A stretch of DNA of 64,000 nucleotides, from contig JBFWNS010000001.1 of NCBI GenBank assembly GCA_050250935.1, positions 387,515 to 451,514 of the forward strand, written 5' to 3'. This DNA is from Candidatus Margulisiibacteriota bacterium (GTDB lineage Bacteria > Margulisbacteria > Marinamargulisbacteria > JBFWNS01). A program made the translations under genes and the position numbers. Within the stretch, counting starts at the first letter, position 1. Each line of letters opens with the position of its first letter. Positions 4,060-29,117 of the stretch are shown here, piece by piece. A model generated the notes under the pieces. That model was not told the DNA's origin and ran no database searches. It was given only the letters and a program-made list of their open reading frames with translations.

Positions 4060-5019
4060 TTAGGCATAGGCGATGTTGGAGAGTTTGATGAGGAGTGTTT
4101 CGCCGGGTTTTACAAAATCGCGGAAGGTGATTTTTTGGGTCTTTGAAACGGTTGTGGTGGCGAATTGGTCTTGGGTTTCGGGGGTACACGCAACCTCGAT
4201 GCCCCGCAAATCGGCCACCAAAACCCCGTCTTCTTTGATGATTTCGGCTTGGAGGCTGATGGTTTCTGGAAAAGGATGGCCTTGGCTGACACGGTTTTGG
4301 GCCAGAATCAAACCGGCGTCTTCCACAATCATCCATTGCATAATGCCCATCATGACGGGATTGCCGGGAAAATGGCCTCGGCATAACGGGTGGGTTTCAG
4401 GAAAATGATAGGCAAAAACCGATTCGCTTTCGGTCTCGTGAACCCAAGCATCGACCATGACCATGGCCTTGTCTTTATGAAACACCGATTTATCGATGGC
4501 TTTGGACTGGGTTTGGGGGTACACCTCCACTTTCTTTTTGACGGCTTTGGCAGCTTCTTCGGGGGTGGGGGCTTGCATAAAAATGGCCGACATATCACCT
4601 TTGGCCACGGTTTGCCCGGCTTCGTTTTCGATGGTGCCGGTGTAAAACATAAATTCGCCCTTGCTTTTGACTTTGCGTACCGTGCCCACCATGCGGGTTC
4701 CCAAAGGAATAGAGCCTGTGCATTCAAAATTGGAAATGCCTGAAAAATAGGTCATTTGACCCGGCAGCAGCCGGCCTGTGGTCACAATCGAGGCCAGGGC
4801 CAGAACTTCCATGAAGGCCGTGGTTAAAAACACCGAGGTGGTTGGGGTGATTTTTTTGGAAAAAATATGGCGGCCTTGGGCATCGGGATTACCGATGGTT
4901 AAGGCCAGGGTTCCGCCCGGAACCCCCTCGATTTCCTCCATTTCAACGGCATCAAGAACCAGGTTTTCGAAACGGTGGGGAATGCGATCGGCAATGTCGA
5001 TTTGGGAAAGTCTTGTCAT
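4060..5019 (-). CDS. Tandem double-hotdog FabA/FabZ-like dehydratase
   Basis: N-domain IPHRFENLVLDAV...FMEVLALA; C-domain GHFPGNPVMMG; linked by an Ala/Lys-rich segment. Confidence 0.75.
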   Translation of the reverse strand: MTRLSQIDIADRIPHRFENLVLDAVEMEEIEGVPGGTLALTIGNPDAQGRHIFSKKITPTTSVFLTTAFMEVLALASIVTTGRLLPGQMTYFSGISNFECTGSIPLGTRMVGTVRKVKSKGEFMFYTGTIENEAGQTVAKGDMSAIFMQAPTPEEAAKAVKKKVEVYPQTQSKAIDKSVFHKDKAMVMVDAWVHETESESVFAYHFPETHPLCRGHFPGNPVMMGIMQWMIVEDAGLILAQNRVSQGHPFPETISLQAEIIKEDGVLVADLRGIEVACTPETQDQFATTTVSKTQKITFRDFVKPGETLLIKLSNIAYA

Positions 5020-5030
5020 TTAAATAGCCT

Positions 5031-5780
5031 TTACTGGTGGTGTTTCATGGCCTTGCGAAGGCGTTCGAGGGCGCTGGTGAGCAAGCGCGAGATGTGCATT
5101 TGAGAGAGGTTTAGTTTTTCGGCGATTTCCATTTGGGACAATCCCATAAAAAACCGGTAATAGATGATTTTTTTCTCGCGATCGTTCAAAACTAAGACCA
5201 CTTGTTTGAGGGTTTCTTTGTCCAAAACCGTTTCTTCGTGGCCGGCCACACCCAAGGTTTCAAGCAAGGTCCCACCTTCGCCACCCGAGCTATTGCGGTG
5301 AGAGGGCATATCCAAAGAGACCACAGTGCCCGTTTGACTGACTTCCATAGACTCCAAAACTTCTTCTTCGGAAAGCCCCGTATGGGTGGCAATTTCTTGA
5401 ATGGTTGGCGAGCGCCCTTCGGATTCGACTTGGCGCATGTAGACTTTGACTTTGCTGTAGTTTTCCTGCATGCGACGGGGCACTTTGACGAGCCGCCCTT
5501 TGTCTCTGAAATAGTGCTTGATTTCCCCAATAATGTTCGGGGTGGCAAAGGTTGAAAAATCGGTGTCCATGGCCGGTTCATATCGGTCTAGACAGCGCAA
5601 CAGACTGATGCTGCCCACTTGGACCAGATCGTCGAAATCGTTGCGGTTAAAGGCCAATTTTCGGGCAATACTCTCCACCAGAGGACGGTAGAGGAGAATC
5701 ACTTCATCCCTTACAGCGAGATCTCGGGATTCGAAATAGCTTAAAACCAACGCTTCTTTTGATTGTTTTGAAGTAGGCAT
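5031..5780 (-). CDS. SigB/SigF-family RNA polymerase sigma factor
   Basis: DDLVQVGSISLLRCLDRYEP, FSTFATPNIIGEIKHYFRD, VKVPRR, SQMEIAEKLNLSQMHISRL. Confidence 0.92.
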   Translation of the reverse strand: MPTSKQSKEALVLSYFESRDLAVRDEVILLYRPLVESIARKLAFNRNDFDDLVQVGSISLLRCLDRYEPAMDTDFSTFATPNIIGEIKHYFRDKGRLVKVPRRMQENYSKVKVYMRQVESEGRSPTIQEIATHTGLSEEEVLESMEVSQTGTVVSLDMPSHRNSSGGEGGTLLETLGVAGHEETVLDKETLKQVVLVLNDREKKIIYYRFFMGLSQMEIAEKLNLSQMHISRLLTSALERLRKAMKHHQ

Positions 5781-5834
5781 GGGTGAAAGTGGATAGCATG
5801 TTAACACGGTCACTGCTATATTAACAGGATCATC

Positions 5835-9144: not shown

Positions 9145-10677
9145 ATGATTTCTTCCCCAACACCAGCAGGTTCTGCACCCCCTAAAATCCCGCCATCTGT
9201 ATCTGCCTCACCTAAACCCCGCCGTCTTGGAACAACACCCTCTACTGTAGCGGCTTCTGCTGCCACCATTGCCCAATCCCCAGCATCCAATCCAAGACGT
9301 TTAACCGCGTCTTTAGGCCCAATTGCCCAACCCAGAATTCGTCGTGGGTTTACACACCAAGGCCCAGCCCTGAAAAAACATAGATACCAACATCAACCCC
9401 AAGCCCCTCTGGTCAAACAAGAATCATTAGGGCTGTACCCGCCATCTCCACCCATAACACAAAAACCATTGGGTCTATACAAACCATCGCCAGCAAAACC
9501 AGCACCATTAGGCCTGTACCCACCATCTTCGCCCATTTTAAAACCATCGGCTCCGCAAACATATCCCCATTCCGTTTTTTCAAAACACACTGATCAACAT
9601 CCTAAATTTGAACCTGTTAGACACTTAACACCCCCATGCCCACCGCCTAAACAATCTCAACCTCTAAACCCTTTATCTGCTATTTCAAGCAACCCAATAC
9701 CTCCTAAAGTTGTTCCTACAAACCCCCTTAAACCACCACTACGCGCAGATCGCATTACCTTGAAACTTTTACCTCAGACACCAGCGCCAAATCCAACACC
9801 CACCTTACCCGTGCACTACTTACCAAAAGCGTCTCATCTCGAAACTTTACCAAAAACACCCGCGTCTTCCACAGGTGTATCTGATTCTCCCTCGCAACCC
9901 TTAACACCACGAAGCTTGCCACCCGACCTTGTAACATCTGAGCCGCAACCTTCTCGGGGGGGAAGACAGGTTTCTTTTGAATCTAATGATGATTCCATAG
10001 AACCACAACTAGATCCCAAAAAGAAGGCAGTAAAATTAGTCGAGCGTTTTATAATAGCGGCTAGTTATAAACACAACTATGCGTTATCAACTGTAGCTCC
10101 CCTGCTAGAACGTTTAAAACGTCAGGATGATTGCAACAAGGCAATTCTCAGGCATTTTATATACGACTCAGCTAATCCTTCAGATCTTATGCTTGGGAGC
10201 CTTAAAGATCAACAGGCGTTATCGCATGAAGTAGAAACGGTCTTCAAAAGTTTGTTACAGATAAAAAATTTGAACAGGTCTTTAAGGTCGGCCTGGCAAG
10301 CTCTAAACAAAGGGCTAAAGGATATTGTCGAAGCCCTACAGGGCAAGTTCATAATAACAAACTTTCATCATGCGCTAGACAATCTCTACACAAATATAGG
10401 TAGGCTTTTGGAAAAGAATTACCAACTCACCCTTAAAAGTACTACTTTTATAAATATAACTTATGCTACATATCAAACAATCTTTAACCAAGTACAACGA
10501 ACATTTTTTGCTGGGGAAGCCGTAAAGCTCCCTATTCAATTTTATATGGATGCCTTCCTTACTAACGGCTCCCTTAGAAATATAAACATTAAAATCGCAG
10601 ACTATGCTAGGCAGCACCCTAAAACAAGGGCATACCAACTGCCAAGCGATTTACAAGAACGACATCATTATCAATAG
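9145..10677 (+). CDS. Hypothetical protein: Pro/Ser-rich disordered N-terminal half plus helical C-terminal domain
   Basis: 510-codon ORF with an AAGGA RBS-like element upstream; visibly more AT-rich than neighbours with frequent TTA/CTA/ATA codons; three LGLY(P/K)P repeats. Confidence 0.7.
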   Translation: MISSPTPAGSAPPKIPPSVSASPKPRRLGTTPSTVAASAATIAQSPASNPRRLTASLGPIAQPRIRRGFTHQGPALKKHRYQHQPQAPLVKQESLGLYPPSPPITQKPLGLYKPSPAKPAPLGLYPPSSPILKPSAPQTYPHSVFSKHTDQHPKFEPVRHLTPPCPPPKQSQPLNPLSAISSNPIPPKVVPTNPLKPPLRADRITLKLLPQTPAPNPTPTLPVHYLPKASHLETLPKTPASSTGVSDSPSQPLTPRSLPPDLVTSEPQPSRGGRQVSFESNDDSIEPQLDPKKKAVKLVERFIIAASYKHNYALSTVAPLLERLKRQDDCNKAILRHFIYDSANPSDLMLGSLKDQQALSHEVETVFKSLLQIKNLNRSLRSAWQALNKGLKDIVEALQGKFIITNFHHALDNLYTNIGRLLEKNYQLTLKSTTFINITYATYQTIFNQVQRTFFAGEAVKLPIQFYMDAFLTNGSLRNINIKIADYARQHPKTRAYQLPSDLQERHHYQ

Positions 10678-11220: not shown

Positions 11221-13077
11221 TCAAGCAACTTTACTGCCCAAACGGTCCAGATAGGAGACCAGCACCATAATATCGGCGGGGTTAATGCCTGCAATTTTTT
11301 TGGCATCGAAAAGGGTTTTGGGTTTGAACTGCTTAAATTTTTCCCGGCTTTCTTTTTTGAGACCCATGATGCTGTCGTAGTCGAGGGCTTCGGGAATGGG
11401 CTTGGATTCCAGCTTTTGGATTTTATCGATTTCTTGCTTTTGTTTGACCAAATAGCCTGCATATTTGACTTCCACCAAGGCTTTTTCGGCCACGCTTTTT
11501 TCTTGGGGCGTAAAGAGATTTTCGGCCATCAATGTGTCCATGGTAATTTCAGGGCGTTTGATAAAGTCGTGGATCAGAATTTTTTGTTTGAGGTTGTATT
11601 TATCGATCCAAGCCACGGGAATCGAGGTTTTTTTCCAGGTGTTTAAAAACCCATCCACTTGGGCCCATTCGTCTCTTACCAACTGAATATCGGCTGAACT
11701 TAACAAGCCCAAGTCGTGGGCACGCTCGCTTAAACGGAAGGTCGCGTTGTCTTGGCGCAAGCTCAGGCGGTATTCGGATCGGGAGGTCAGCATGCGGTAG
11801 GGTTCGTAGATGTTTTTGGTGATCAAATCATCGATCATGGTGCCAATGTAGGAATCTTCGCGTTTGAGTACAAATGGCTCCCGGTTTTGGACTTTTAGGG
11901 CCGCATTAATACCGGCGATAATGCCCTGGCCTGCGGCTTCTTCGTAGCCAGAGGTCCCGTTAATTTGACCCGCCAAAAACAGGTTGTGCACCGAACGGGT
12001 TTCCAAGGTGGGCAGCAGTTGATCGGGATACACAAAATCGTATTCCACCGCATAGCCGGGTTTTAAGACCACCACATTTTCCAATCCGGGAATGGTTTTT
12101 AAAAAGGCTTCTTGAACGTCTTCTGGCAAAGACGTATTCAGGCCTTGGGCATAAATTTCGTTGGTGTCTCGGCCTTCGGGTTCAATAAAGATTTGATGCG
12201 TGTCTTTGTCGGCAAATCGAACGACCTTGTCTTCGATGGACGGGCAATACCGTGGCCCAGTGCCTTGGATCACCTTTTGAAACATGGGTGACCGATCTAA
12301 ATTCCCCAAAATAATTTCGTGGGTGGCCACCGTGGTTCGGGTTAAATGACAGTCGATTTGAGATTTAAACCGTTCATGATAGGGCGTGCGAAACGAAAAC
12401 CGCAAAAATTCGGGGTCACCGGGCTGAACTTCCATTTTGTCGTAGTCGATGGATCGGCTGTCCAAACGGGGCGTTGTCCCGGTTTTTAACCGGCCCATGC
12501 GAAGACCGGCCATGGCCAAACTTTCGGACAAATGTTCGGCGCTAAATTCGCCCACCCGACCCGCAGAAAACGAGTTCATCCCAATGTGAATTTTGCCTTT
12601 TAAAAACGTCCCTGTTGTCACCACCACTGCCGAGGCCAAATAGGTCCGCCCCAAGTCGGTGATCACCCCTTTGACGCGGTTGTCTTCAAACAGCAAACTG
12701 CGGATCATGGCCTGGCGAACTTCCAGGTTGGGTTGGTTTTCCACCACTTTTTTCATGTAGCGGTTGTAGTCGGTTTTATCGTTTTGGGACCTCAAACATT
12801 GGACAGCAGGCCCTCGGGAGCGGTTGAGAATTTTAAGTTGGATATAGGTTTCGTCTGCAGCTTTACCCATTTCGCCACCCAGGGCATCGACTTCGCCCAC
12901 AATTTGGCCTTTGGCAGGCCCGCCAATGGAGGGGTTACAGGGCATTAACCCAATGGTTTCCAAATTAATGGTAAACACCAGGGTTTTACACCCCAGGCGC
13001 GCCGAAGCCAGGGCTGCCTCGATGCCGGCATGCCCTGCCCCAATGACAATCACATCATAGTGCTGCGAACTATCCAT
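11221..13077 (-). CDS. mnmG: tRNA uridine 5-carboxymethylaminomethyl modification enzyme
   Basis: [54 protein letters not shown]. Confidence 0.98.
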
Positions 13078-13083
13078 TGCTGA

Positions 13084-14286
13084 TTAGAAGGGGAGACCGA
13101 AGGCCTTTGTCAGATTCACTTGGGTGCCCACAGAAACGGTTTCGTTGAATGCGCCAGAGGCCACATATTCGCGCTTAACCGACACAATATAGTCGAAGGC
13201 CCCACCCGTTTTATAGTGAATGGTGCTGGACAAGGTATGGTTGCCTTGGGCTTGGAAAGGCATGCTGTAGTTGATCACCCCAACCGTATTAAACAGCGAG
13301 TGCCAACCCAAAGCACCGGTTAACAAAGGGGCTCTGTCGTCGTAGCCTTCAAATCCCAACCCTACTTTAAAAATGTCATTGACCTGAGCACCAGCCGATA
13401 TCAAAAAGCCATTGATGTCTTTTTGGGGGGCATCGGTGGGGAAAGTAAAGCTAGAGGCTTCGTAATCTTGGCCAAAATACCCAGGAACAAACCCAGCACC
13501 CAAACGTCGATACTCGGCTCTGTATTCAAAAAAGGACATCAAATCGCCCTTCATTCCAGCCGAAGCGCCTCGGCCCAAAATGGCGTTATCTTTGTCCATT
13601 AACTGTGAGCCTTCCAAATAGAAGGTCAAGAAATCGCCACCCACAGGAAAGGCCAAATCCACACCCAAAGCTGATACTTGGGGTCGGGTTACCGAATTCC
13701 CTGGCACAGGGGTCGCACTAACCCCATCGTCGGTTACATAGGTGGTTCCAATCGCCAAAGGCCAGTTCAATAGAAAAGAGTCGGACCACAGATAGCTAAG
13801 TCGGGCTGCTTTTAGGTTTTTGGCGGTGACCATGGCGTCGACACGAATCGGATCGAGTTGCAGATAGCCTTTTACCCCAGCTTTGTCGGTGGTAAATTCC
13901 CCAGATCCTCCAGCACCGCTGTCATAGTGATCCATCACCAACCCATATCCATAGGTCACATTGGTCAATCGGCCCCATTTTAGACCGGCTACATTTTCAA
14001 AATCAAACCCCACATGGCGCAAACTAAACCATTGCAGTTCGGCAGGTACCGTGGCCCCGTTTAGGGGGATGTAGGCATTCATGTCAAAACCCACTTCGAT
14101 AGGTCCCAAAGCCAGATCGGGACTAATGCCTACTTTGGCCAGGGAATTGCCTTGAACATTCACAAGTCCTGCGTTGCCCATAACCCCAGGCCCTTCGAAG
14201 TCTTCCAAGCGATAGGCGACAGGGGCTGCCATGACACTTGTGCACAATAAAAGGGTTAAAATCGAGGCTAAAAATTGTTTATTCAT
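13084..14286 (-). CDS. Hypothetical exported protein, probable outer-membrane beta-barrel
   Basis: N-terminal signal peptide, alternating amphipathic beta-strand pattern, C-terminal Phe. Confidence 0.6.
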   Translation of the reverse strand: MNKQFLASILTLLLCTSVMAAPVAYRLEDFEGPGVMGNAGLVNVQGNSLAKVGISPDLALGPIEVGFDMNAYIPLNGATVPAELQWFSLRHVGFDFENVAGLKWGRLTNVTYGYGLVMDHYDSGAGGSGEFTTDKAGVKGYLQLDPIRVDAMVTAKNLKAARLSYLWSDSFLLNWPLAIGTTYVTDDGVSATPVPGNSVTRPQVSALGVDLAFPVGGDFLTFYLEGSQLMDKDNAILGRGASAGMKGDLMSFFEYRAEYRRLGAGFVPGYFGQDYEASSFTFPTDAPQKDINGFLISAGAQVNDIFKVGLGFEGYDDRAPLLTGALGWHSLFNTVGVINYSMPFQAQGNHTLSSTIHYKTGGAFDYIVSVKREYVASGAFNETVSVGTQVNLTKAFGLPF

Positions 14287-22105: not shown

Positions 22106-23288
22106 GGGCCTTATGTAGGTGTTGCCACGCCAAAATTTGGTCTGGGCTATAGGTGATGTTCCGCCGAGCCCCCGTCCGTTCCAAGGTTTTGATAAATTGG
22201 TCCCAACGGTAGGAAACAAACCGGCCATATTCGCCCCAAGAAAAGGGCAGAATTTCGCCCCGGTTCAGGGTTGTGCCAAATACATTGGCCCCAGCACCCA
22301 CCACCGTTCCCGCATTGATGAGGGTACCAATGCCCGTTTTAACGTGATCGCCAATCAAGGCTCCCAAAAATTGTTCCGAGGTGGATTCCGCCACACCGTT
22401 TCGGGTGACCATGATGGTGCCATAGGTGTTTTTGAGGTTGGAGGTTGTGGTTCCGGCCCCCAAATTAACCCATTCGCCCAAGACACTATTTCCCAAATAC
22501 CCAGCATGGGCTTTGTTCGAATAGGCCCCCACGCAAGAGGCACTGATTTCTCCGGCCACCTTGGCCCAAGCCCCAATGCTGCTGCCGCTGACCCGACCTC
22601 CCAAGACCGACGCGTGTTTGCCAATGTAAAGGGGTCCTTCCAAACGACTGAAGGCTTGGATGGTAGCATCATCGTCGATATAAACGGGGCCTTTTTCGGT
22701 GGAAATCGACACAAAAGCGTCCAGGGTTACGCGGTGACCAATGTAGACTTTTTCGGAACAATCGATGGCCACTGGCGCCGGAATGGCACTGTGACACTCT
22801 CCACCACGGCCCAAGGTATTAAATTCTTCGGTTAAAAGCGCGCCATGGTGGTTAAACAAATCCCAAGGGCGGTGAATCAGCATTTGGGGTTCGGCTTGGA
22901 CACTGGTCCTATTTCGGCCTTGGGTTGCCAACAGTTCCGCAACCTCGCCCCCATCCACAAGGGCGGCCACCAGGGTTTCCCCAACCTTTAGGGCCGTTCC
23001 GGGTTCAAGATTTTGGATGCGGTCTGCCAAAGCAGCGGTCATCAGCACCCGGCCATTTAAAAGCCGACATGGTTGACCCGGTTTAACATGGTGGTAAAGC
23101 GGATACCCCGAGGGCAGCAACGGCAGAATCTCGGATCTTGCATGCAGATAAATGGGGTCGTGGGGAAAGGCCCGATGGATTTTTTCCAACACCGTCCCAA
23201 TGCCGGTTAGGGCCGTATAAACCGGGCGGGCCAAGGTTAAGGGACTCAGGTCTGGGTACTGTTTGTCTTCAAAAACACAGGTGATCAT
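22092..23288 (-). CDS. GlmU-like sugar nucleotidyltransferase/hexapeptide acyltransferase
   Basis: PLTLARP N-domain without the canonical GxGTR motif; hexapeptide LbH region; HAGYLGNS, NLGAGTTTSNLKN. Confidence 0.75.
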   Translation of the reverse strand: MITCVFEDKQYPDLSPLTLARPVYTALTGIGTVLEKIHRAFPHDPIYLHARSEILPLLPSGYPLYHHVKPGQPCRLLNGRVLMTAALADRIQNLEPGTALKVGETLVAALVDGGEVAELLATQGRNRTSVQAEPQMLIHRPWDLFNHHGALLTEEFNTLGRGGECHSAIPAPVAIDCSEKVYIGHRVTLDAFVSISTEKGPVYIDDDATIQAFSRLEGPLYIGKHASVLGGRVSGSSIGAWAKVAGEISASCVGAYSNKAHAGYLGNSVLGEWVNLGAGTTTSNLKNTYGTIMVTRNGVAESTSEQFLGALIGDHVKTGIGTLINAGTVVGAGANVFGTTLNRGEILPFSWGEYGRFVSYRWDQFIKTLERTGARRNITYSPDQILAWQHLHKAHANV

Positions 23289-24073
23289 GATGTCCCATCA
23301 TACCCCAGGGATCGGGAGCGTATCAACGCAAGCACCACGCCTGCCACCACCATTCCCAGACACAGGTACTGCCCCATGGTCAGGCCTCCCCATAAAAATC
23401 CTACCTGAACATCGGGCTCTCTGAAGCGTTCTAAACAAAAACGAATTAAGCCATACCCCATCACAAAAAAAGCCAGGAGCTGCCCGGGTTTTACCCGGCG
23501 ATGCAAGACCAACAACACCAGCCCCAAAATCAGGCCCTCCCCCACCGCTTCGTAGAGCTGGGAGGGATGCCTTGGCAAAAGCCCACCAGCTGGAAACACC
23601 ATGCCCCAGGGGACGGTGGTGAATCGACCATACAATTCACCATTGATAAAATTCGCGACTCGGCCAAAAAAAATCCCAAGGGTCGAGACCAAGGCCAGTC
23701 CATCCCAGAGCGGCCAGAGGGGTTTTTGATTCTTTTTTGCAAAAAACAAGACGGCCAGACCTGCGCCCAAGGCCCCGCCATGAAAAGACATACCGCCTTG
23801 CCATAAGGCCAGGATATCGCCAGGGTTCTGCCAAAAATAGCCGGGATCGTAGACCAAAACATAGCCGAGTCGTCCACCCAAAACGATGCCCAACATCACC
23901 ATGGCAGCCAAGTCCATCACGTTGTCCCAGGTCAGGGGGCAGGTTTTTTGTACGGCTTTTTTGAAGCCAACGGCACCAAGCAAAACGCCCATCAAATAGG
24001 CCATGCCGTACCACCGAATGGCCAGGGGTCCCAGATGAATCAAAACCGGATCAATGTGGGGATAACGGATCAT
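23285..24073 (-). CDS. lgt: Prolipoprotein diacylglyceryl transferase
   Basis: RWYG, GGRLGY, GGMSFHGG, GRVANFINGEL, RHPSQLYE. Confidence 0.97.
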   Translation of the reverse strand: MIRYPHIDPVLIHLGPLAIRWYGMAYLMGVLLGAVGFKKAVQKTCPLTWDNVMDLAAMVMLGIVLGGRLGYVLVYDPGYFWQNPGDILALWQGGMSFHGGALGAGLAVLFFAKKNQKPLWPLWDGLALVSTLGIFFGRVANFINGELYGRFTTVPWGMVFPAGGLLPRHPSQLYEAVGEGLILGLVLLVLHRRVKPGQLLAFFVMGYGLIRFCLERFREPDVQVGFLWGGLTMGQYLCLGMVVAGVVLALIRSRSLGYDGTS

Positions 24074-24112
24074 TCTTGTTCATAGGATACCCTAAAAGCT
24101 ATACTACTCCCA

Positions 24113-24961
24113 ATGGCCATTCTAAAAAAATCACAATTGACCTCTTCAGAGCCGGTTTCTCGGGCAAAATCTCATGCCAAAACCCACGCGACTCCCAAGC
24201 TGATCCAAGCCGATAAAACGGCCACAGCCTTGCCAAGGTCCACCACCACGGCTCGACAACTTCCCAAATTAAAAGATCTCGAAAAACCCGTTGCCTCTTT
24301 GTCTGACCCTCACTTTAATCCCCAATTGGAAGCCGAACTGGCGGCATTAAAAGAACGCTACAGTGCCGAGGTTCGCCAAAAGATCGACGCGGATATTGCA
24401 GCCTACCGCGAGTCGCAATTTCATCAAATTGAGTTTGAAAAACAAGCCATTTTGGCCAAAGCCCAAAAAGAAGGCTACGAAGCCGGTAAACGGGAAGCCG
24501 ACAAAATTGTGACCGAAAAAGCCCAATTGTTTGTAACAGGCATGAGCGATATTGCCAAAGAAAAAAATCGGATCCTCGAAAACAGTACCGAACCGGTGTT
24601 GGATTTGGCCATCGACATTGCCAAGCGCATCGTGGAAGAAGAAATTAAACTGACCCCAGACCTTTGCATAGGGCTGGTCAAAGAAGCCCTGCGAAAAATT
24701 ACCGACAAAGACCGGGTGGTCATTCGGGTTAACGAAGAAGACGAAACCCTGATTCGGTCTCAAAAAGACGCCATCTTGCAGCTGATGAACGACATTAAAC
24801 AACTCGAAGTGCAAGTCGACCCCAAAGTGGATCGGGGTGGCTGCATTATCGAAACCAAACTGGGCTATATCGATGCCCGGGTGTCCACCAAGTTGGAAGT
24901 GATCCAACTGAGCTTGAAACAAGAATACGCCGAAGAGAAACGCGAACGGGGCCTGCTGTAG
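24113..24961 (+). CDS. fliH: FliH/SctL type III export stator
   Basis: AxxEGYEAG repeat, LAIDIAKRIV, GGCIIETKLGYIDARV. Confidence 0.88.
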   Translation: MAILKKSQLTSSEPVSRAKSHAKTHATPKLIQADKTATALPRSTTTARQLPKLKDLEKPVASLSDPHFNPQLEAELAALKERYSAEVRQKIDADIAAYRESQFHQIEFEKQAILAKAQKEGYEAGKREADKIVTEKAQLFVTGMSDIAKEKNRILENSTEPVLDLAIDIAKRIVEEEIKLTPDLCIGLVKEALRKITDKDRVVIRVNEEDETLIRSQKDAILQLMNDIKQLEVQVDPKVDRGGCIIETKLGYIDARVSTKLEVIQLSLKQEYAEEKRERGLL

Positions 24962-26268
24962 TGGCCTTGGATTTAACCCGCTATCACAAAGCGATTGACC
25001 GTCACGACATCATCAAGGTGGTGGGCAAGGTGATTGAGGTGGTGGGACTGGTCATCGAAGCCCAGGTTCAAGGGGTTTCTGTGGGCGAGGTTTGCCACAT
25101 TTATTTGGACGACGACAATTGGATTCGCAGCGAAGTCGTGGGCTTTCGCGAGGAACGGGTGTTGTTGATGCCCCTGGGCAGCATTGGTGGCATTCGCCCC
25201 GGCAGTAAAATCTATGCAACCGGACATCCCCTGGAAGCCAAAGTGGGCATGAATTTGTTGGGGCGAGTTTTGGATGGACTTGGCAACCCCATGGATGGCA
25301 AAGGCGAGCTGGAGTTCGAGACTGTGTACAACATCGATCGCGATCCTCCCGATGCCGTAATGCGGCCTCGCATTACCGAAGTTTTGAAAACAGGGGTCAA
25401 GGCCATCGATGGATTGTTGACCTTGGGAAAAGGACAACGGGTCGGTATTTTTGCCGGTTCTGGGGTCGGCAAAAGCACCCTGATGGGGATGTTGGCCCGA
25501 AACTGCGAAGCCGATGTCAACGTGATTAGTTTGATTGGCGAACGGGGCCGCGAGGTTAAAGACTTTATTGAAGAATCCTTGGGCGAAGAAGGCCTTAAAA
25601 AATCGGTGGTCATTTGTGCTACCTCGGACAAACCGCCAGTGGTTCGGCTCAAAGGCGCCTTGGTGGGCACAGCCATTGCCGAATATTTTCGGGATCAAGG
25701 CAAAAACGTGTTGTTTATGATGGACTCGGTCACCCGATTTGCCATGGCCCAACGCGAAATTGGTCTGGCCACCGGAGAGCCTCCCACAACCAAAGGATAC
25801 ACCCCCTCTGTGTTTGCCATGTTACCCCGCCTGATGGAACGGGCTGGCACCTCGGAAAAAGGAACCATCACCGCCATTTATACGGTTTTGGTCGACGGCG
25901 GCGACATGGACGAACCCATTGCCGACGCAGCCCGGGGGATTTTGGACGGGCACATGGTTCTGTCCCGAGATCTGGCCTCTAAAAATCATTATCCCTGTAT
26001 TGACATTGGGCCCAGCATCAGCCGGTTGGCTTCGGCCATTTCCGAAGCGGGACACAAAAAAGCTGCGGGTCAATTGCGGGAAGTGTTGGCCCGATACCAA
26101 GAGGCCGAAGATTTAATTAATATTGGCGCCTACGTCAAAGGCAGCAACCCCAAAATCGACTATGCCATCGACAAAATTGATGGGGTAAACAGCTTTTTGC
26201 GGCAAGCCACAGACGAAAACATTCCTTTTGACGACTCGATCAAAGCCCTGGTCCGGATGTTTTCATAA
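24961..26268 (+). CDS. fliI: FliI/SctN type III export ATPase
   Basis: GIFAGSGVGKS, LIGERGREV, MDSVTRFAMAQREIGL, LMERAG, GILDGH. Confidence 0.95.
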   Translation: MALDLTRYHKAIDRHDIIKVVGKVIEVVGLVIEAQVQGVSVGEVCHIYLDDDNWIRSEVVGFREERVLLMPLGSIGGIRPGSKIYATGHPLEAKVGMNLLGRVLDGLGNPMDGKGELEFETVYNIDRDPPDAVMRPRITEVLKTGVKAIDGLLTLGKGQRVGIFAGSGVGKSTLMGMLARNCEADVNVISLIGERGREVKDFIEESLGEEGLKKSVVICATSDKPPVVRLKGALVGTAIAEYFRDQGKNVLFMMDSVTRFAMAQREIGLATGEPPTTKGYTPSVFAMLPRLMERAGTSEKGTITAIYTVLVDGGDMDEPIADAARGILDGHMVLSRDLASKNHYPCIDIGPSISRLASAISEAGHKKAAGQLREVLARYQEAEDLINIGAYVKGSNPKIDYAIDKIDGVNSFLRQATDENIPFDDSIKALVRMFS

Positions 26269-26279
26269 GCCTTTAAGCA

Positions 26280-26851
26280 ATGGCCAGCAAACCCAAAAAA
26301 AGCAAACGATTTAACTACAACCTCACCGCAGTTCTCAAGGTTCGAGAAATTCGTGAAAAACAGCGCCAAGAAGCCTTTATGGAGGCCCAACGAGAACTCG
26401 AAGAAGAGCAAAAAAAAGAAGCCGAACTCAAACAAAACATCGCCGACAAATATCAAGAATTGCGGGAAGTTTTAACCGGAAAACGCCCCTCTACCGACAT
26501 CGCAGGGGAAGTCATTCAGCGTAAAACCAACCTCGAATCGCTTAACGAAAAATTGGCCGAACAAATCCAAAAACGGGAAGAAGCCGAAAAAAAAGTCGAC
26601 GAAGCCCGAGAAGAACTGATCAAAGCCGTTAAAGACAAAAAAATCATCGAAAAAGACAAAGAACACAAGCGGGTGGCCTGGCAAAAACTAATGATCAAAG
26701 AAGACAACAAGTTTATGGACGATATTTCCACAGTGGGTTTCGACCGAAAACGCCGCAAGGCCGAGGCCCTGGAAGAACAAGAAGACCAAGCCGATGCCAA
26801 AAAATTCGCAGCCGAAAACGCCGCCGAATCCAACCCCTTTAAGCTGAATTA

Positions 26852-26852
<1 letters not shown>
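26280..26852 (+). CDS. fliJ: FliJ/SctO coiled-coil export protein
   Basis: RFNYNLTAVLKVRE start, long charged coiled coil, KIIEKDKE, position after fliI. Confidence 0.8.

Positions 26853-29117
<2,265 letters not shown>

What the first reader, a model, noticed from the sequence alone, without database searches (positions are those of the whole stretch)
24113..26852. Stand-alone FliH-FliI-FliJ export ATPase module, with no other flagellar or injectisome genes in the window
Seen: a three-gene unit divergent from lgt across 39 bp and coupled downstream to bioD; no fliF or fliG upstream. FliH has a long Ser/Thr/Lys-rich N-extension and FliJ an acidic tail. Known: flagellar operons normally run fliF-fliG-fliH-fliI-fliJ. 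Inference: a dispersed, possibly non-motility type III export system. With the two effector-like ORFans (9145, 58799) and the sigma28-like promoter, this is the best candidate here for an undescribed secretion system in a poorly studied lineage.
Basis: partly seen in the sequence, partly recalled or inferred. Interest (0 to 1): 0.62.

Follow-up and report, generated by a model that had tools for sequence, protein, structure and literature searches.

The report
Detached flagellar export-ATPase operon (fliHIJ)
This is an ordinary flagellar-type export ATPase operon (fliH-fliI-fliJ) in an uncultured Margulisbacteria genome that became separated from the rest of the flagellar basal-body genes, not evidence of a new secretion system; whether this organism still has the rest of the flagellar set could not be checked directly.

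Summary
Three coupled ORFs (24113-26852) encode FliH, FliI and FliJ, divergent from lgt across 39 bp and overlapping bioD by 1 nt. No other flagellar or T3SS gene lies in the 64-kb window.

FliI is flagellar type: FliI_clade2 scores above its curated cutoff, and the SctN model scores below its own. The organism is a Margulisbacterium from a landfill metagenome.

The order lgt|fliHIJ, usually followed by an unknown outer-membrane-like protein and mnmG, is conserved in about 30 related loci that form one clade. All three genes are under purifying selection there.

Other Margulisbacteria carry fliHIJ at the 3' end of a conserved cluster of about 17 flagellar basal-body genes. On the FliI tree the detached state looks derived.

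One published Marinamargulisbacteria genome ('Ca. Ruthmannia eludens') also has FliI flanked by two unannotated genes. Its FliF, FliG-MotAB, FlgE, rod and ring genes and FliMNPQR-FlhBA are annotated at other loci.

So this is most likely one piece of a dispersed flagellar gene set. I could not show the other genes in this genome or clade. The 'effector-like' ORFans have no homologues in related loci. Interest is low to moderate.

The parts
23285..24073 (-). lgt (prolipoprotein diacylglyceryl transferase). It is the conserved divergent neighbour and marks the 'lgt-type' clade. It is not part of the export module.
   Evidence: PF01790 240 bits and TIGR00544 226 bits. lgt lies immediately upstream and divergent in L002-L010 and in L102-L114 and L171.
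24100..24105 (+). TATACT, a -10-like hexamer ending 7 nt before the fliH ATG. It is the putative promoter of the module and implies a leaderless or near-leaderless fliH mRNA.
   Evidence: Read directly from the sequence. A TATAAT or TATACT box, often preceded by TGn, sits 6-10 nt before the fliH ATG in L002, L003, L004, L005, L006 and L009. The consensus scan found no full -35/-10 promoter here. Function is inferred.
24113..24961 (+). fliH, the stator and regulator of the export ATPase. It has an N-terminal MAILKK motif, a low-complexity linker, a coiled coil and a C-terminal FliH domain (residues 143-262).
   Evidence: PF02108 E=2e-21. The best NCBIfam hits are FliH and SctL models, all below their equivalog cutoffs. 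The N-terminal M-x-[ILV]-[ILF]-K-[KRQ]-type motif is shared with most cluster-type FliH. dN/dS is about 0.2.
24961..26268 (+). fliI, the flagellar type III export ATPase.
   Evidence: TIGR03497 FliI_clade2 651.9 bits, above the 629.8 cutoff; SctN TIGR02546 597 bits, below its 604.75 cutoff. The P-loop AGSGVGKST, GERGRE and LFMMDS motifs are present. It is 75-82% identical to lgt-type relatives, 73-76% to cluster-type relatives and at most about 65% to other phyla. dN/dS is about 0.03.
26280..26852 (+). fliJ, the central-stalk-like chaperone and coupling protein, with a lineage-specific acidic, Ala-rich C-terminal tail of about 35 aa.
   Evidence: PF02050 34.7 bits, above the 28.4 cutoff; TIGR02473 39.4 bits, below its 50.45 cutoff. 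It is 37-57% identical in lgt-type loci. Relatives are 151-168 aa. dN/dS is at most 0.09-0.27.
26852..27520 (+). bioD (dethiobiotin synthase), a passenger gene translationally coupled to fliJ in this lineage only.
   Evidence: TIGR00347 125.9 bits, above the 83.3 cutoff. There is a 1-nt TAATG overlap. No relative has bioD after fliJ.
13084..14286 (-). A 400-aa secreted protein that looks like an outer-membrane beta-barrel ('OMP400'). In most relatives it directly follows fliJ and precedes mnmG. In the window it has been moved 10 kb away together with mnmG. Function is unknown, and it is linked to the module by synteny only.
   Evidence: Full-length homologues (33-47% identity) lie downstream of fliJ in L002, L004, L005, L009, L019, L020, L102-L104, L106, L109, L110, L115 and L121. 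It has no Pfam, NCBIfam or PDB-sequence match. The structure model was unusable.

Best explanation
The three genes are a working flagellar-type fliH-fliI-fliJ operon. FliI is the hexameric ATPase, FliH its dimeric stator and regulator, and FliJ the stalk-like subunit. In known flagella these three load and energise export of rod, hook and later substrates through the FlhA/FlhB/FliPQR gate.

In an ancestor of this Margulisbacteria clade, the operon was detached from the 3' end of a large flagellar basal-body cluster: flhB-like, flgF, flgG, flgA, flgH, flgI, a FliA-like sigma, flgB, flgC, fliE, fliF, a short fliG, then fliH, fliI, fliJ. It came to lie next to lgt with its own housekeeping-type promoter. 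The partner genes are expected at other loci of the genome.

Shown here: the identity of the three genes, their conservation and purifying selection, the derived detached arrangement, and the absence of partner genes nearby.

Inferred: that the partner genes exist elsewhere in this genome, the promoter and leaderless start, and the docking of the FliH N-terminus on a FliN-type partner.
For: - Identity: the FliI_clade2 equivalog scores above its cutoff, and FliH and FliJ score above their Pfam thresholds. The catalytic motifs are intact.
- Relatives: the closest FliI sequences are all Margulisbacteria.
- Conserved arrangement: 13 genome loci and 17 metagenome loci share lgt|fliHIJ.
- Cluster-type arrangement: 20 other Margulisbacteria loci have fliHIJ at the end of the basal-body cluster.
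- Polarity: on NJ FliI trees the lgt-type group is nested among, or sister to, the cluster-type lineages. The L014-L017 cluster-type clade lies outside.
- Selection: dN/dS is about 0.03 for fliI, about 0.2 for fliH and at most 0.27 for fliJ.
- Precedent: in the RAST table of 'Ca. Ruthmannia eludens' (PMC6784892, supplement 3), FliI is peg.232, flanked by hypothetical genes 231 and 233 and by dnaA. FlgI/H/G/F are pegs 304-308, FliG-MotA-MotB 420-422, FliF 514, FlgC 518 and FlgE 763. FliM/N/P/Q/R-FlhB-FlhA are pegs 1251-1260.
- Shared motif: the FliH N-terminal motif is shared with cluster-type FliH.
Against: - I found no other flagellar gene from the window's organism or from any lgt-type genome.
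- None lies in the 64-kb window or in about 400 kb of flanks from relatives.
- Three profile searches seeded from the sister lineages (FliF, FlgI, FlgH) returned only proteins that I could tie to cluster-type genomes or to other phyla. None was on the window's 576,121-bp contig (look-ups).
- These searches list only 120 rows. The FliF search even missed sequences that were in its own query alignment, so the negatives are weak.
- R. eludens is not shown to belong to the same clade, and its fliHIJ is not next to lgt.
- The per-genome KO table of Carnevali et al. lists no FliH, FliI or FliJ for its three Marinamargulisbacteria SAGs, so it cannot be used either way.
- Bootstrap support for lgt-type monophyly is only 103 of 200.
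Confidence: 0.72

Rival explanations
1. Orphan module. The lgt-type clade has lost the flagellar basal body and export gate but keeps FliH, FliI and FliJ under selection. The module would then work with an unknown partner or in a new role.
For: No FliF, FlgI or FlgH attributable to this clade turned up in three profile searches, although 20-54 cluster-type homologues were found each time. No partner gene lies in about 460 kb around fliHIJ across about 30 loci. The module has its own promoter-like element and a conserved new neighbourhood of lgt, OMP400 and mnmG.
Against: No function of FliH/I/J without the FlhA gate is known (established knowledge of flagellar and injectisome export). The searches were capped and had demonstrable false negatives. 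The FliH N-terminal motif is still conserved with lineages that have the basal body. FliI shows no rate acceleration on the tree. R. eludens shows that a stand-alone fliHIJ can coexist with a dispersed set.
Confidence: 0.14
2. Filament-less, flagellum-derived export machine. The partner genes exist, but the apparatus is a basal body, with or without a hook, that is used for protein export rather than swimming, as proposed for Buchnera.
For: The R. eludens table has no flagellin and no hook-associated protein (FlgK, FlgL, FliD) annotated. The three Marinamargulisbacteria SAGs have no KO calls for FlgK, FlgL, FliD, FliK, FlgD or FliM. In cluster-type relatives the FliG next to FliF is only 161-177 aa and lacks the torque-generating FliG_C domain. 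Their FliF has no hit, or only a marginal one, to the C-terminal domain PF08345.
Against: R. eludens has FliG, MotA, MotB, FliM, FliN and FlgE annotated, which fits a rotating motor. The flagellin KO is missing from all 46 genomes in the Carnevali table, so that row is uninformative. The authors read the gene set as polar flagella. The absences come from automatic annotation of incomplete or divergent genomes. Nothing here bears on the window's own genome.
Confidence: 0.1
3. One reading: a new non-flagellar type III secretion system (injectisome-like) that delivers the ORFans at 9145 and 58793 as effectors.
For: The module stands alone, and the two ORFans have no known family.
Against: The ATPase is a FliI by curated cutoff and falls below the SctN cutoff. 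Its relatives sit in flagellar clusters. There is no secretin, SctV, SctJ or translocon gene in the window. The ORFans have no homologue in any related locus, so they do not co-occur with the module.
Confidence: 0.02
4. A decaying remnant with no function.
For: It is isolated from the other flagellar genes.
Against: The ORFs are intact in about 30 loci spanning 32-54% GC. dN/dS is 0.03-0.27, and the catalytic motifs are intact.
Confidence: 0.02

Closest known systems
Canonical flagellar fliH-fliI-fliJ, as in the Salmonella fliFGHIJK operon or the spirochaete and Firmicute flgB-flgC-fliE-fliF-fliG-fliH-fliI-fliJ operons
   Same: The same three proteins occur in the same order with the same tight coupling. 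FliI is of clade-2 type with intact motifs. Classical operons of this kind were recovered as the nearest non-Margulisbacteria relatives (L090, L093, L094).
   Different: No fliF or fliG lies upstream and no fliK, flgD or flgE downstream. The module has its own promoter-like element next to lgt.
The Margulisbacteria basal-body cluster (Ca. Termititenax and many MAGs): SLT, fliK-like, flhB-C-like, flgF, flgG, flgA, (panD), flgH, flgI, a small unknown ORF, FliA-like sigma, flgB, flgC, fliE, fliF, short fliG, fliH, fliI, fliJ
   Same: FliH, FliI and FliJ look orthologous. FliI is 73-76% identical, and the FliH N-terminal motif is shared.
   Different: In the window's clade only the last three genes remain together, relocated next to lgt.
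'Candidatus Ruthmannia eludens' (Marinamargulisbacteria symbiont of Trichoplax H2; PMC6784892)
   Same: FliI is flanked by two unannotated genes among housekeeping genes. The rest of the flagellar genes are scattered over at least five other loci.
   Different: Its neighbours are an epimerase and dnaA, not lgt. Only the annotation table was available, not the sequences, so its relationship to the window's clade is untested.
Dispersed flagellar genes of Helicobacter and Campylobacter
   Same: From general knowledge, in these bacteria flagellar genes, including fliI, are scattered among housekeeping genes. A stand-alone position is therefore not unusual in itself.
   Different: A different phylum. 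Not examined here.
Reduced flagellar sets without filaments (Buchnera basal bodies; chlamydial FliI, FlhA and FliF)
   Same: From general knowledge, these are examples of flagellar export components kept without swimming. This matches the rival readings, not the best one.
   Different: No evidence here that the filament or the basal body is missing in this genome.

Membership tests
Flagellar export ATPase FliI (NCBIfam TIGR03497, FliI clade 2) | Scores above the curated equivalog cutoff and higher than the paralogous models (SctN, F1 and V1 subunits) | tested here: met
   651.9 bits against a cutoff of 629.8. SctN TIGR02546 scores 597 against 604.75. atpD scores 209.
Flagellar export ATPase FliI (NCBIfam TIGR03497, FliI clade 2) | N-terminal beta-barrel, RecA-like ATPase core with P-loop, catalytic Glu and Walker B, and the T3SS-ATPase C-terminal domain | tested here: met
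   PF02874, PF00006 and PF18269. AGSGVGKST, GERGRE at residue 193 and LFMMDS at residue 251.
Flagellar export ATPase FliI (NCBIfam TIGR03497, FliI clade 2) | Encoded with FliH and FliJ | tested here: met
   Adjacent and coupled genes.
Flagellar export ATPase FliI (NCBIfam TIGR03497, FliI clade 2) | The same genome encodes the flagellar export gate (FlhA, FlhB, FliP/Q/R) and the MS ring (FliF) | not testable with these tools
   Only 64 kb of the genome, plus the same region from a second assembly (L001), could be read. Profile searches found none attributable to this organism. The gate and FliF are annotated in R. eludens.
FliH (PF02108) / SctL stator family | C-terminal FliH domain above the Pfam gathering score | tested here: met
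   76.5 bits against 24.1, residues 143-262.
FliH (PF02108) / SctL stator family | Reaches an NCBIfam equivalog cutoff for FliH | tested here: not met
   The best hit, NF005198, scores 118.1 against a cutoff of 200. The protein is a divergent member, as in its relatives.
FliJ (PF02050, TIGR02473) | Coiled-coil FliJ domain above threshold | tested here: inconclusive
   Pfam 34.7 bits against 28.4 is met. TIGR02473 39.4 bits against 50.45 is not met. Position after fliI and conservation in relatives support the call.
Non-flagellar type III secretion system (injectisome) | SctN-type ATPase above the equivalog cutoff | tested here: not met
   TIGR02546 scores 597, below its 604.75 cutoff and below the FliI model.
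Non-flagellar type III secretion system (injectisome) | Secretin SctC, SctV, SctJ, needle or translocon genes nearby | tested here: not met
   None in the window or in about 30 related loci. The rest of the genome was not examined.
Sigma-28 (FliA) dependent late flagellar operon | A FliA-type sigma factor and a sigma-28 promoter upstream | tested here: not met
   The window's sigma factor (5031-5813) is best matched by the SigB/F/G model at 221 bits, against 113.6 for FliA_WhiG. The sigma in the relatives' cluster is FliA-like. Upstream of fliH there is a TATACT/TATAAT-type -10 box, not GCCGATAA.

The most novel reading that the evidence does not exclude
A whole clade of Margulisbacteria, mostly aquatic and here from a landfill, keeps FliH-FliI-FliJ under strong purifying selection without a conventional flagellar basal body. 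Either the module serves a reduced, filament-less export device, or it has a partner that is not the flagellar gate. Possibly this involves the conserved, unclassifiable outer-membrane-like protein that normally follows fliJ.
Probability: 0.15. Interest if true: 0.75.

Novelty: new member of a known kind. Interest (0 to 1): 0.3.

Why it matters
As it stands, this finding mainly corrects an over-reading. A fliHIJ unit without fliF or fliG next to it does not signal a new secretion system. In this phylum it results from the break-up of an ancestral flagellar cluster.

It would matter more if the negative searches hold up on complete genomes. A lineage that keeps the export ATPase complex without the gate or basal body would be unprecedented.

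Separately, the widespread Margulisbacteria cluster deserves a specialist's look. It pairs a truncated FliG that lacks the torque domain with a FliF that lacks a clear C-terminal domain, and it carries an embedded FliA-like sigma factor. Published work simply reads these genomes as 'motile by polar flagella'.

Tried and rejected
**Profile searches**
- I ran three profile searches of the large protein collection (FliF, FlgI, FlgH from cluster-type relatives), followed by 11 context look-ups.
- Every hit I could resolve was a cluster-type Margulisbacterium (L082, L086, L088, L089, L095, L098, L099, L100) or a classical operon of another lineage (L090, L093, L094).
- The lists are capped at 120 rows. 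The FliF search omitted the L014-L017 FliFs that were in its own query alignment. These negatives therefore cannot prove absence.

**Contig-length matching**
- The window's contig is 576,121 bp. No FliF, FlgI or FlgH hit shares that length.

**FlhA seed**
- A regex for the FHIPEP motif found no FlhA in any fetched locus, so no FlhA seed from this phylum was available.

**Carnevali et al. KO table**
- The table first looked like direct evidence. But it lists no FliH, FliI or FliJ for the three Marinamargulisbacteria SAGs.
- Those SAGs may belong to the AT-rich cluster-type clade. I therefore use the table only for context.

**Literature**
- The Termititenax genome paper (PMC6331581) is not held.
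- Other literature searches gave nothing specific.

**OMP400**
- It has no Pfam, NCBIfam or PDB-sequence hit.
The single-sequence model had a pLDDT of 32 and was discarded.

**Sigma factor at 5031-5813**
- I considered it as a flagellar sigma and rejected it, because it is SigB/F/G-like.

**Promoter scan**
- The consensus promoter scan found nothing above the shuffled expectation. The -10 observation comes from comparing loci.
Full report
**What is there**

The window holds three tightly packed ORFs on the plus strand: 24113-24961 (282 aa), 24961-26268 (435 aa) and 26280-26852 (190 aa).

- Pfam assigns them to FliH (PF02108, 76.5 bits), to the T3SS/F1-type ATPase architecture (PF02874 + PF00006 + PF18269) and to FliJ (PF02050, 34.7 bits).
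- NCBIfam places the ATPase in FliI clade 2 above the curated cutoff (651.9 against 629.8). The injectisome SctN model scores lower and below its own cutoff (597 against 604.75).
- The P-loop (AGSGVGKST), GERGRE and LFMMDS motifs are intact.
- fliH and fliI overlap by one base (TAGTG), fliI and fliJ are 11 nt apart, and fliJ overlaps bioD by one base (TAATG). lgt starts 39 bp upstream on the other strand.
- A second assembly of the same organism gives identical gene calls.

**Is it alone?**

Yes, within what can be read.

- tblastn with the proteins of Margulisbacteria flagellar clusters, and then with about 1,900 ORFs from classical and cluster-type flagellar loci, finds only FliH, FliI and FliJ in the window.
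- The remaining window ORFs are housekeeping genes (gyrAB, BamA, Skp, lpxD, TolC/AcrB, nadA, IF3, bioB-like, DUF5693 and others) or have no family.

**Whose genome**

The closest FliI sequences (68-82% identity) are all Margulisbacteria: UBP8_UBA817, 'Marinamargulisbacteria' MAGs and SAGs, and Ca. Termititenax. Other phyla reach at most about 65%. The DNA comes from a landfill metagenome. It lies on a 576,121-bp contig held by NCBI and Logan.

**Two arrangements in the phylum**

1. The 'lgt-type' arrangement has lgt(-)|fliH-fliI-fliJ.
   - It usually continues with a 400-aa secreted protein of unknown family and then mnmG.
   - It occurs in the window, in 13 genome loci (L002-L011, L018-L020) and in 17 metagenome loci (L102-L116, L121, L171). 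These span 32-54% GC.
   - In the window, the 400-aa gene and mnmG have moved together to 11221-14286 on the other strand, and bioD has become the gene after fliJ.
2. The 'cluster-type' arrangement puts fliH-fliI-fliJ at the 3' end of a conserved cluster.
   - The gene order is: (SLT, fliK-like, flhB-C-terminal-like, flgF), flgG, flgA, (panD), flgH, flgI, a small unknown ORF, a FliA/WhiG-like sigma, flgB, flgC, fliE, fliF, a short fliG, then fliH, fliI, fliJ.
   - It occurs in Ca. Termititenax and many MAGs: L012-L017, L022, L082-L089, L095, L098-L100, L117, L119 and L120.

On neighbour-joining FliI trees the Margulisbacteria are one clade.

- The lgt-type sequences group together in 103 of 200 bootstraps.
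- They come out as sister to the main cluster-type clade, with the L014-L017 cluster-type clade outside.
- The simplest reading is that the cluster is ancestral and that fliHIJ was detached once.

**Is the detached module alive?**

Yes.

- On unsaturated pairs, dN/dS is about 0.03 for fliI, about 0.2 for fliH and at most 0.09-0.27 for fliJ.
- FliI branch lengths are like those of cluster-type lineages.
- The first residues of FliH (MAILKK in the window; MPLIKK, MSLIKK, MGIIKK, MVLFKG or MGLLKQ in relatives) are conserved across both arrangements.
- In known systems the FliH N-terminus docks on the FliN/FliM platform. So I infer that the partner is still there.

**How it is expressed (inferred)**

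In the window a TATACT box (24100-24105) ends 7 nt before the fliH ATG.

- L002, L003, L004, L005, L006 and L009 have TATAAT or TATACT, mostly with an upstream TG, 6-10 nt before their fliH ATG.
- This suggests a dedicated housekeeping-type promoter and a leaderless or near-leaderless mRNA. It does not suggest sigma-28 control.
- The sigma factor in the window (5031-5813) is SigB/F/G-like. It is only about 27% identical to the FliA-like sigma embedded in the relatives' cluster.

**Are the partner genes elsewhere?**

This is the point that decides between 'ordinary' and 'strange', and I could answer it only indirectly.

Evidence for:
- The RAST table of 'Ca. Ruthmannia eludens' covers a 1.51-Mb high-quality Marinamargulisbacteria MAG (PMC6784892, supplement 3).
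- It lists FliI at peg.232 between two hypothetical genes, next to an epimerase and dnaA/dnaN. No FliH or FliJ is annotated anywhere else in that genome.
- The other flagellar genes sit at separate loci: FlgI 304, FlgH 305, FlgG 307, FlgF 308, an FlhB-like gene 309; FliG 420, MotA 421, MotB 422; FliF 514, FlgC 518; FlgE 763; FliM 1251, FliN 1252, FliP 1254, FliQ 1257, FliR 1258, FlhB 1259, FlhA 1260.
- So a stand-alone fliHIJ does coexist with a dispersed, largely complete set in this class.

Evidence against, or at least not for:
- Profile searches with cluster-type FliF, FlgI and FlgH returned 20-54 Margulisbacteria-type proteins each. Every one I could place was cluster-type.
- None lies on the 576,121-bp contig.
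- About 400 kb of lgt-type flanks hold no partner gene.
- These searches are capped. The FliF search missed members of its own query alignment. So absence is not shown.

The KO table of Carnevali et al. (PMC6349859) needs care.
- It lists FlhA, FlhB, FliO-R, FliN, FliF and the rod, ring and hook genes for SAG AAA071-K20. [quoted passage not shown]
- It also lists no FliH, FliI or FliJ for any of the three ocean SAGs, and those SAGs may belong to the cluster-type clade.
- I therefore give it little weight.

**Verdict**

- The most likely explanation (about 0.7) is an ordinary flagellar export-ATPase operon that has been separated from its cluster. Its partner genes would lie elsewhere in the genome.
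The ATPase is a FliI, there is no injectisome gene, and the two ORFans (9145-10677, Pro-rich; 58793-59413) have no family and no homologue in any of 180 related loci.
- Two less ordinary readings remain open. In one, the clade has lost the basal body but kept the ATPase complex (about 0.14). In the other, the apparatus has no filament (about 0.1). The second is hinted at by the lack of annotated flagellin, FlgK, FlgL and FliD in R. eludens. The truncated FliG and atypical FliF of the cluster-type lineages point the same way.
- A whole-genome scan for the flagellar gene set would settle this in minutes. I could not run it because only the window is available.

Noticed in passing
window 13084-14286 (-); L002 11759-12973, L005 11833-13041, L103 11838-13010, L104 6681-7883 and others: A 400-aa protein has a signal peptide and a C-terminal aromatic residue, like an outer-membrane beta-barrel. 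It directly follows fliJ and precedes mnmG in most lgt-type genomes. In the window it has moved 10 kb away together with mnmG. It has no Pfam, NCBIfam or PDB-sequence match, and it was found only in the lgt-type loci.
   Followed up: partly
L082 11668-12159, L095 15062-15550, L100 14680-15165, L016 8475-8999 (and every cluster-type locus): The fliG next to fliF in cluster-type Margulisbacteria encodes only 161-177 aa. It has partial FliG_N and FliG_M domains and no torque-generating FliG_C. The adjacent FliF has no hit, or only a marginal one, to the C-terminal domain PF08345. Whether a full-length FliG exists elsewhere in those genomes is unknown.
   Followed up: partly
L095 4008-18314 (also L088, L098, L099, L100, L086, L089, L016): A conserved cluster of about 17 flagellar basal-body genes carries an embedded FliA/WhiG-like sigma factor, a stand-alone FlhB C-terminal-domain protein, a FliK-like protein and, in many lineages, panD (aspartate decarboxylase) between flgA and flgH. 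No flhA, fliPQR, fliM/N, motAB or flgE lies in or next to it.
   Followed up: partly
window 24100-24105; L002-L009 upstream of fliH: A TATAAT or TATACT box, often in the extended TGn form, ends 6-10 nt before the fliH start codon in most lgt-type loci. This suggests leaderless or near-leaderless fliH transcripts.
   Followed up: partly
PMC6349859 Supplementary Data 2 (not window sequence): In that per-genome table the Saganbacteria columns lack KO calls for FliG, FliM, FlgK, FlgL and FliD but have the gate, rod, rings and hook. The three Marinamargulisbacteria SAGs lack FliH, FliI and FliJ calls. The flagellin KO is absent from all 46 genomes. The text nevertheless infers polar flagella.
   Followed up: no
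window 56157-57578 (+): A single 473-aa ORF carries a FabZ domain (residues 68-200, 193 bits) followed by a full LpxA (residues 207-465, 351 bits). This is an apparent FabZ-LpxA fusion, upstream of lpxB.
   Followed up: no
window 9145-10677 (+) and 58793-59413 (+): The two 'effector-like' ORFans. The first has a proline-rich, low-complexity N-terminal half of about 300 aa and a C-terminal part of about 200 aa that looks globular. Neither has a family match or a homologue in any related locus. The second may not be a real gene.
   Followed up: partly
L118 1361-3887 (Tara contig CERI01004013.1): A further stand-alone fliH-fliI-fliJ (FliI 72% identical to the window's) with no lgt, fliF or short fliG detected in the 1.3 kb upstream. 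It may be an independent or older break of the cluster.
   Followed up: no
window 4060-5019 (-) and 5031-5813 (-): A 319-aa protein with two FabZ-like hotdog halves lies directly downstream of a SigB/F/G-type sigma factor. Neither has an evident link to the flagellar genes.
   Followed up: no
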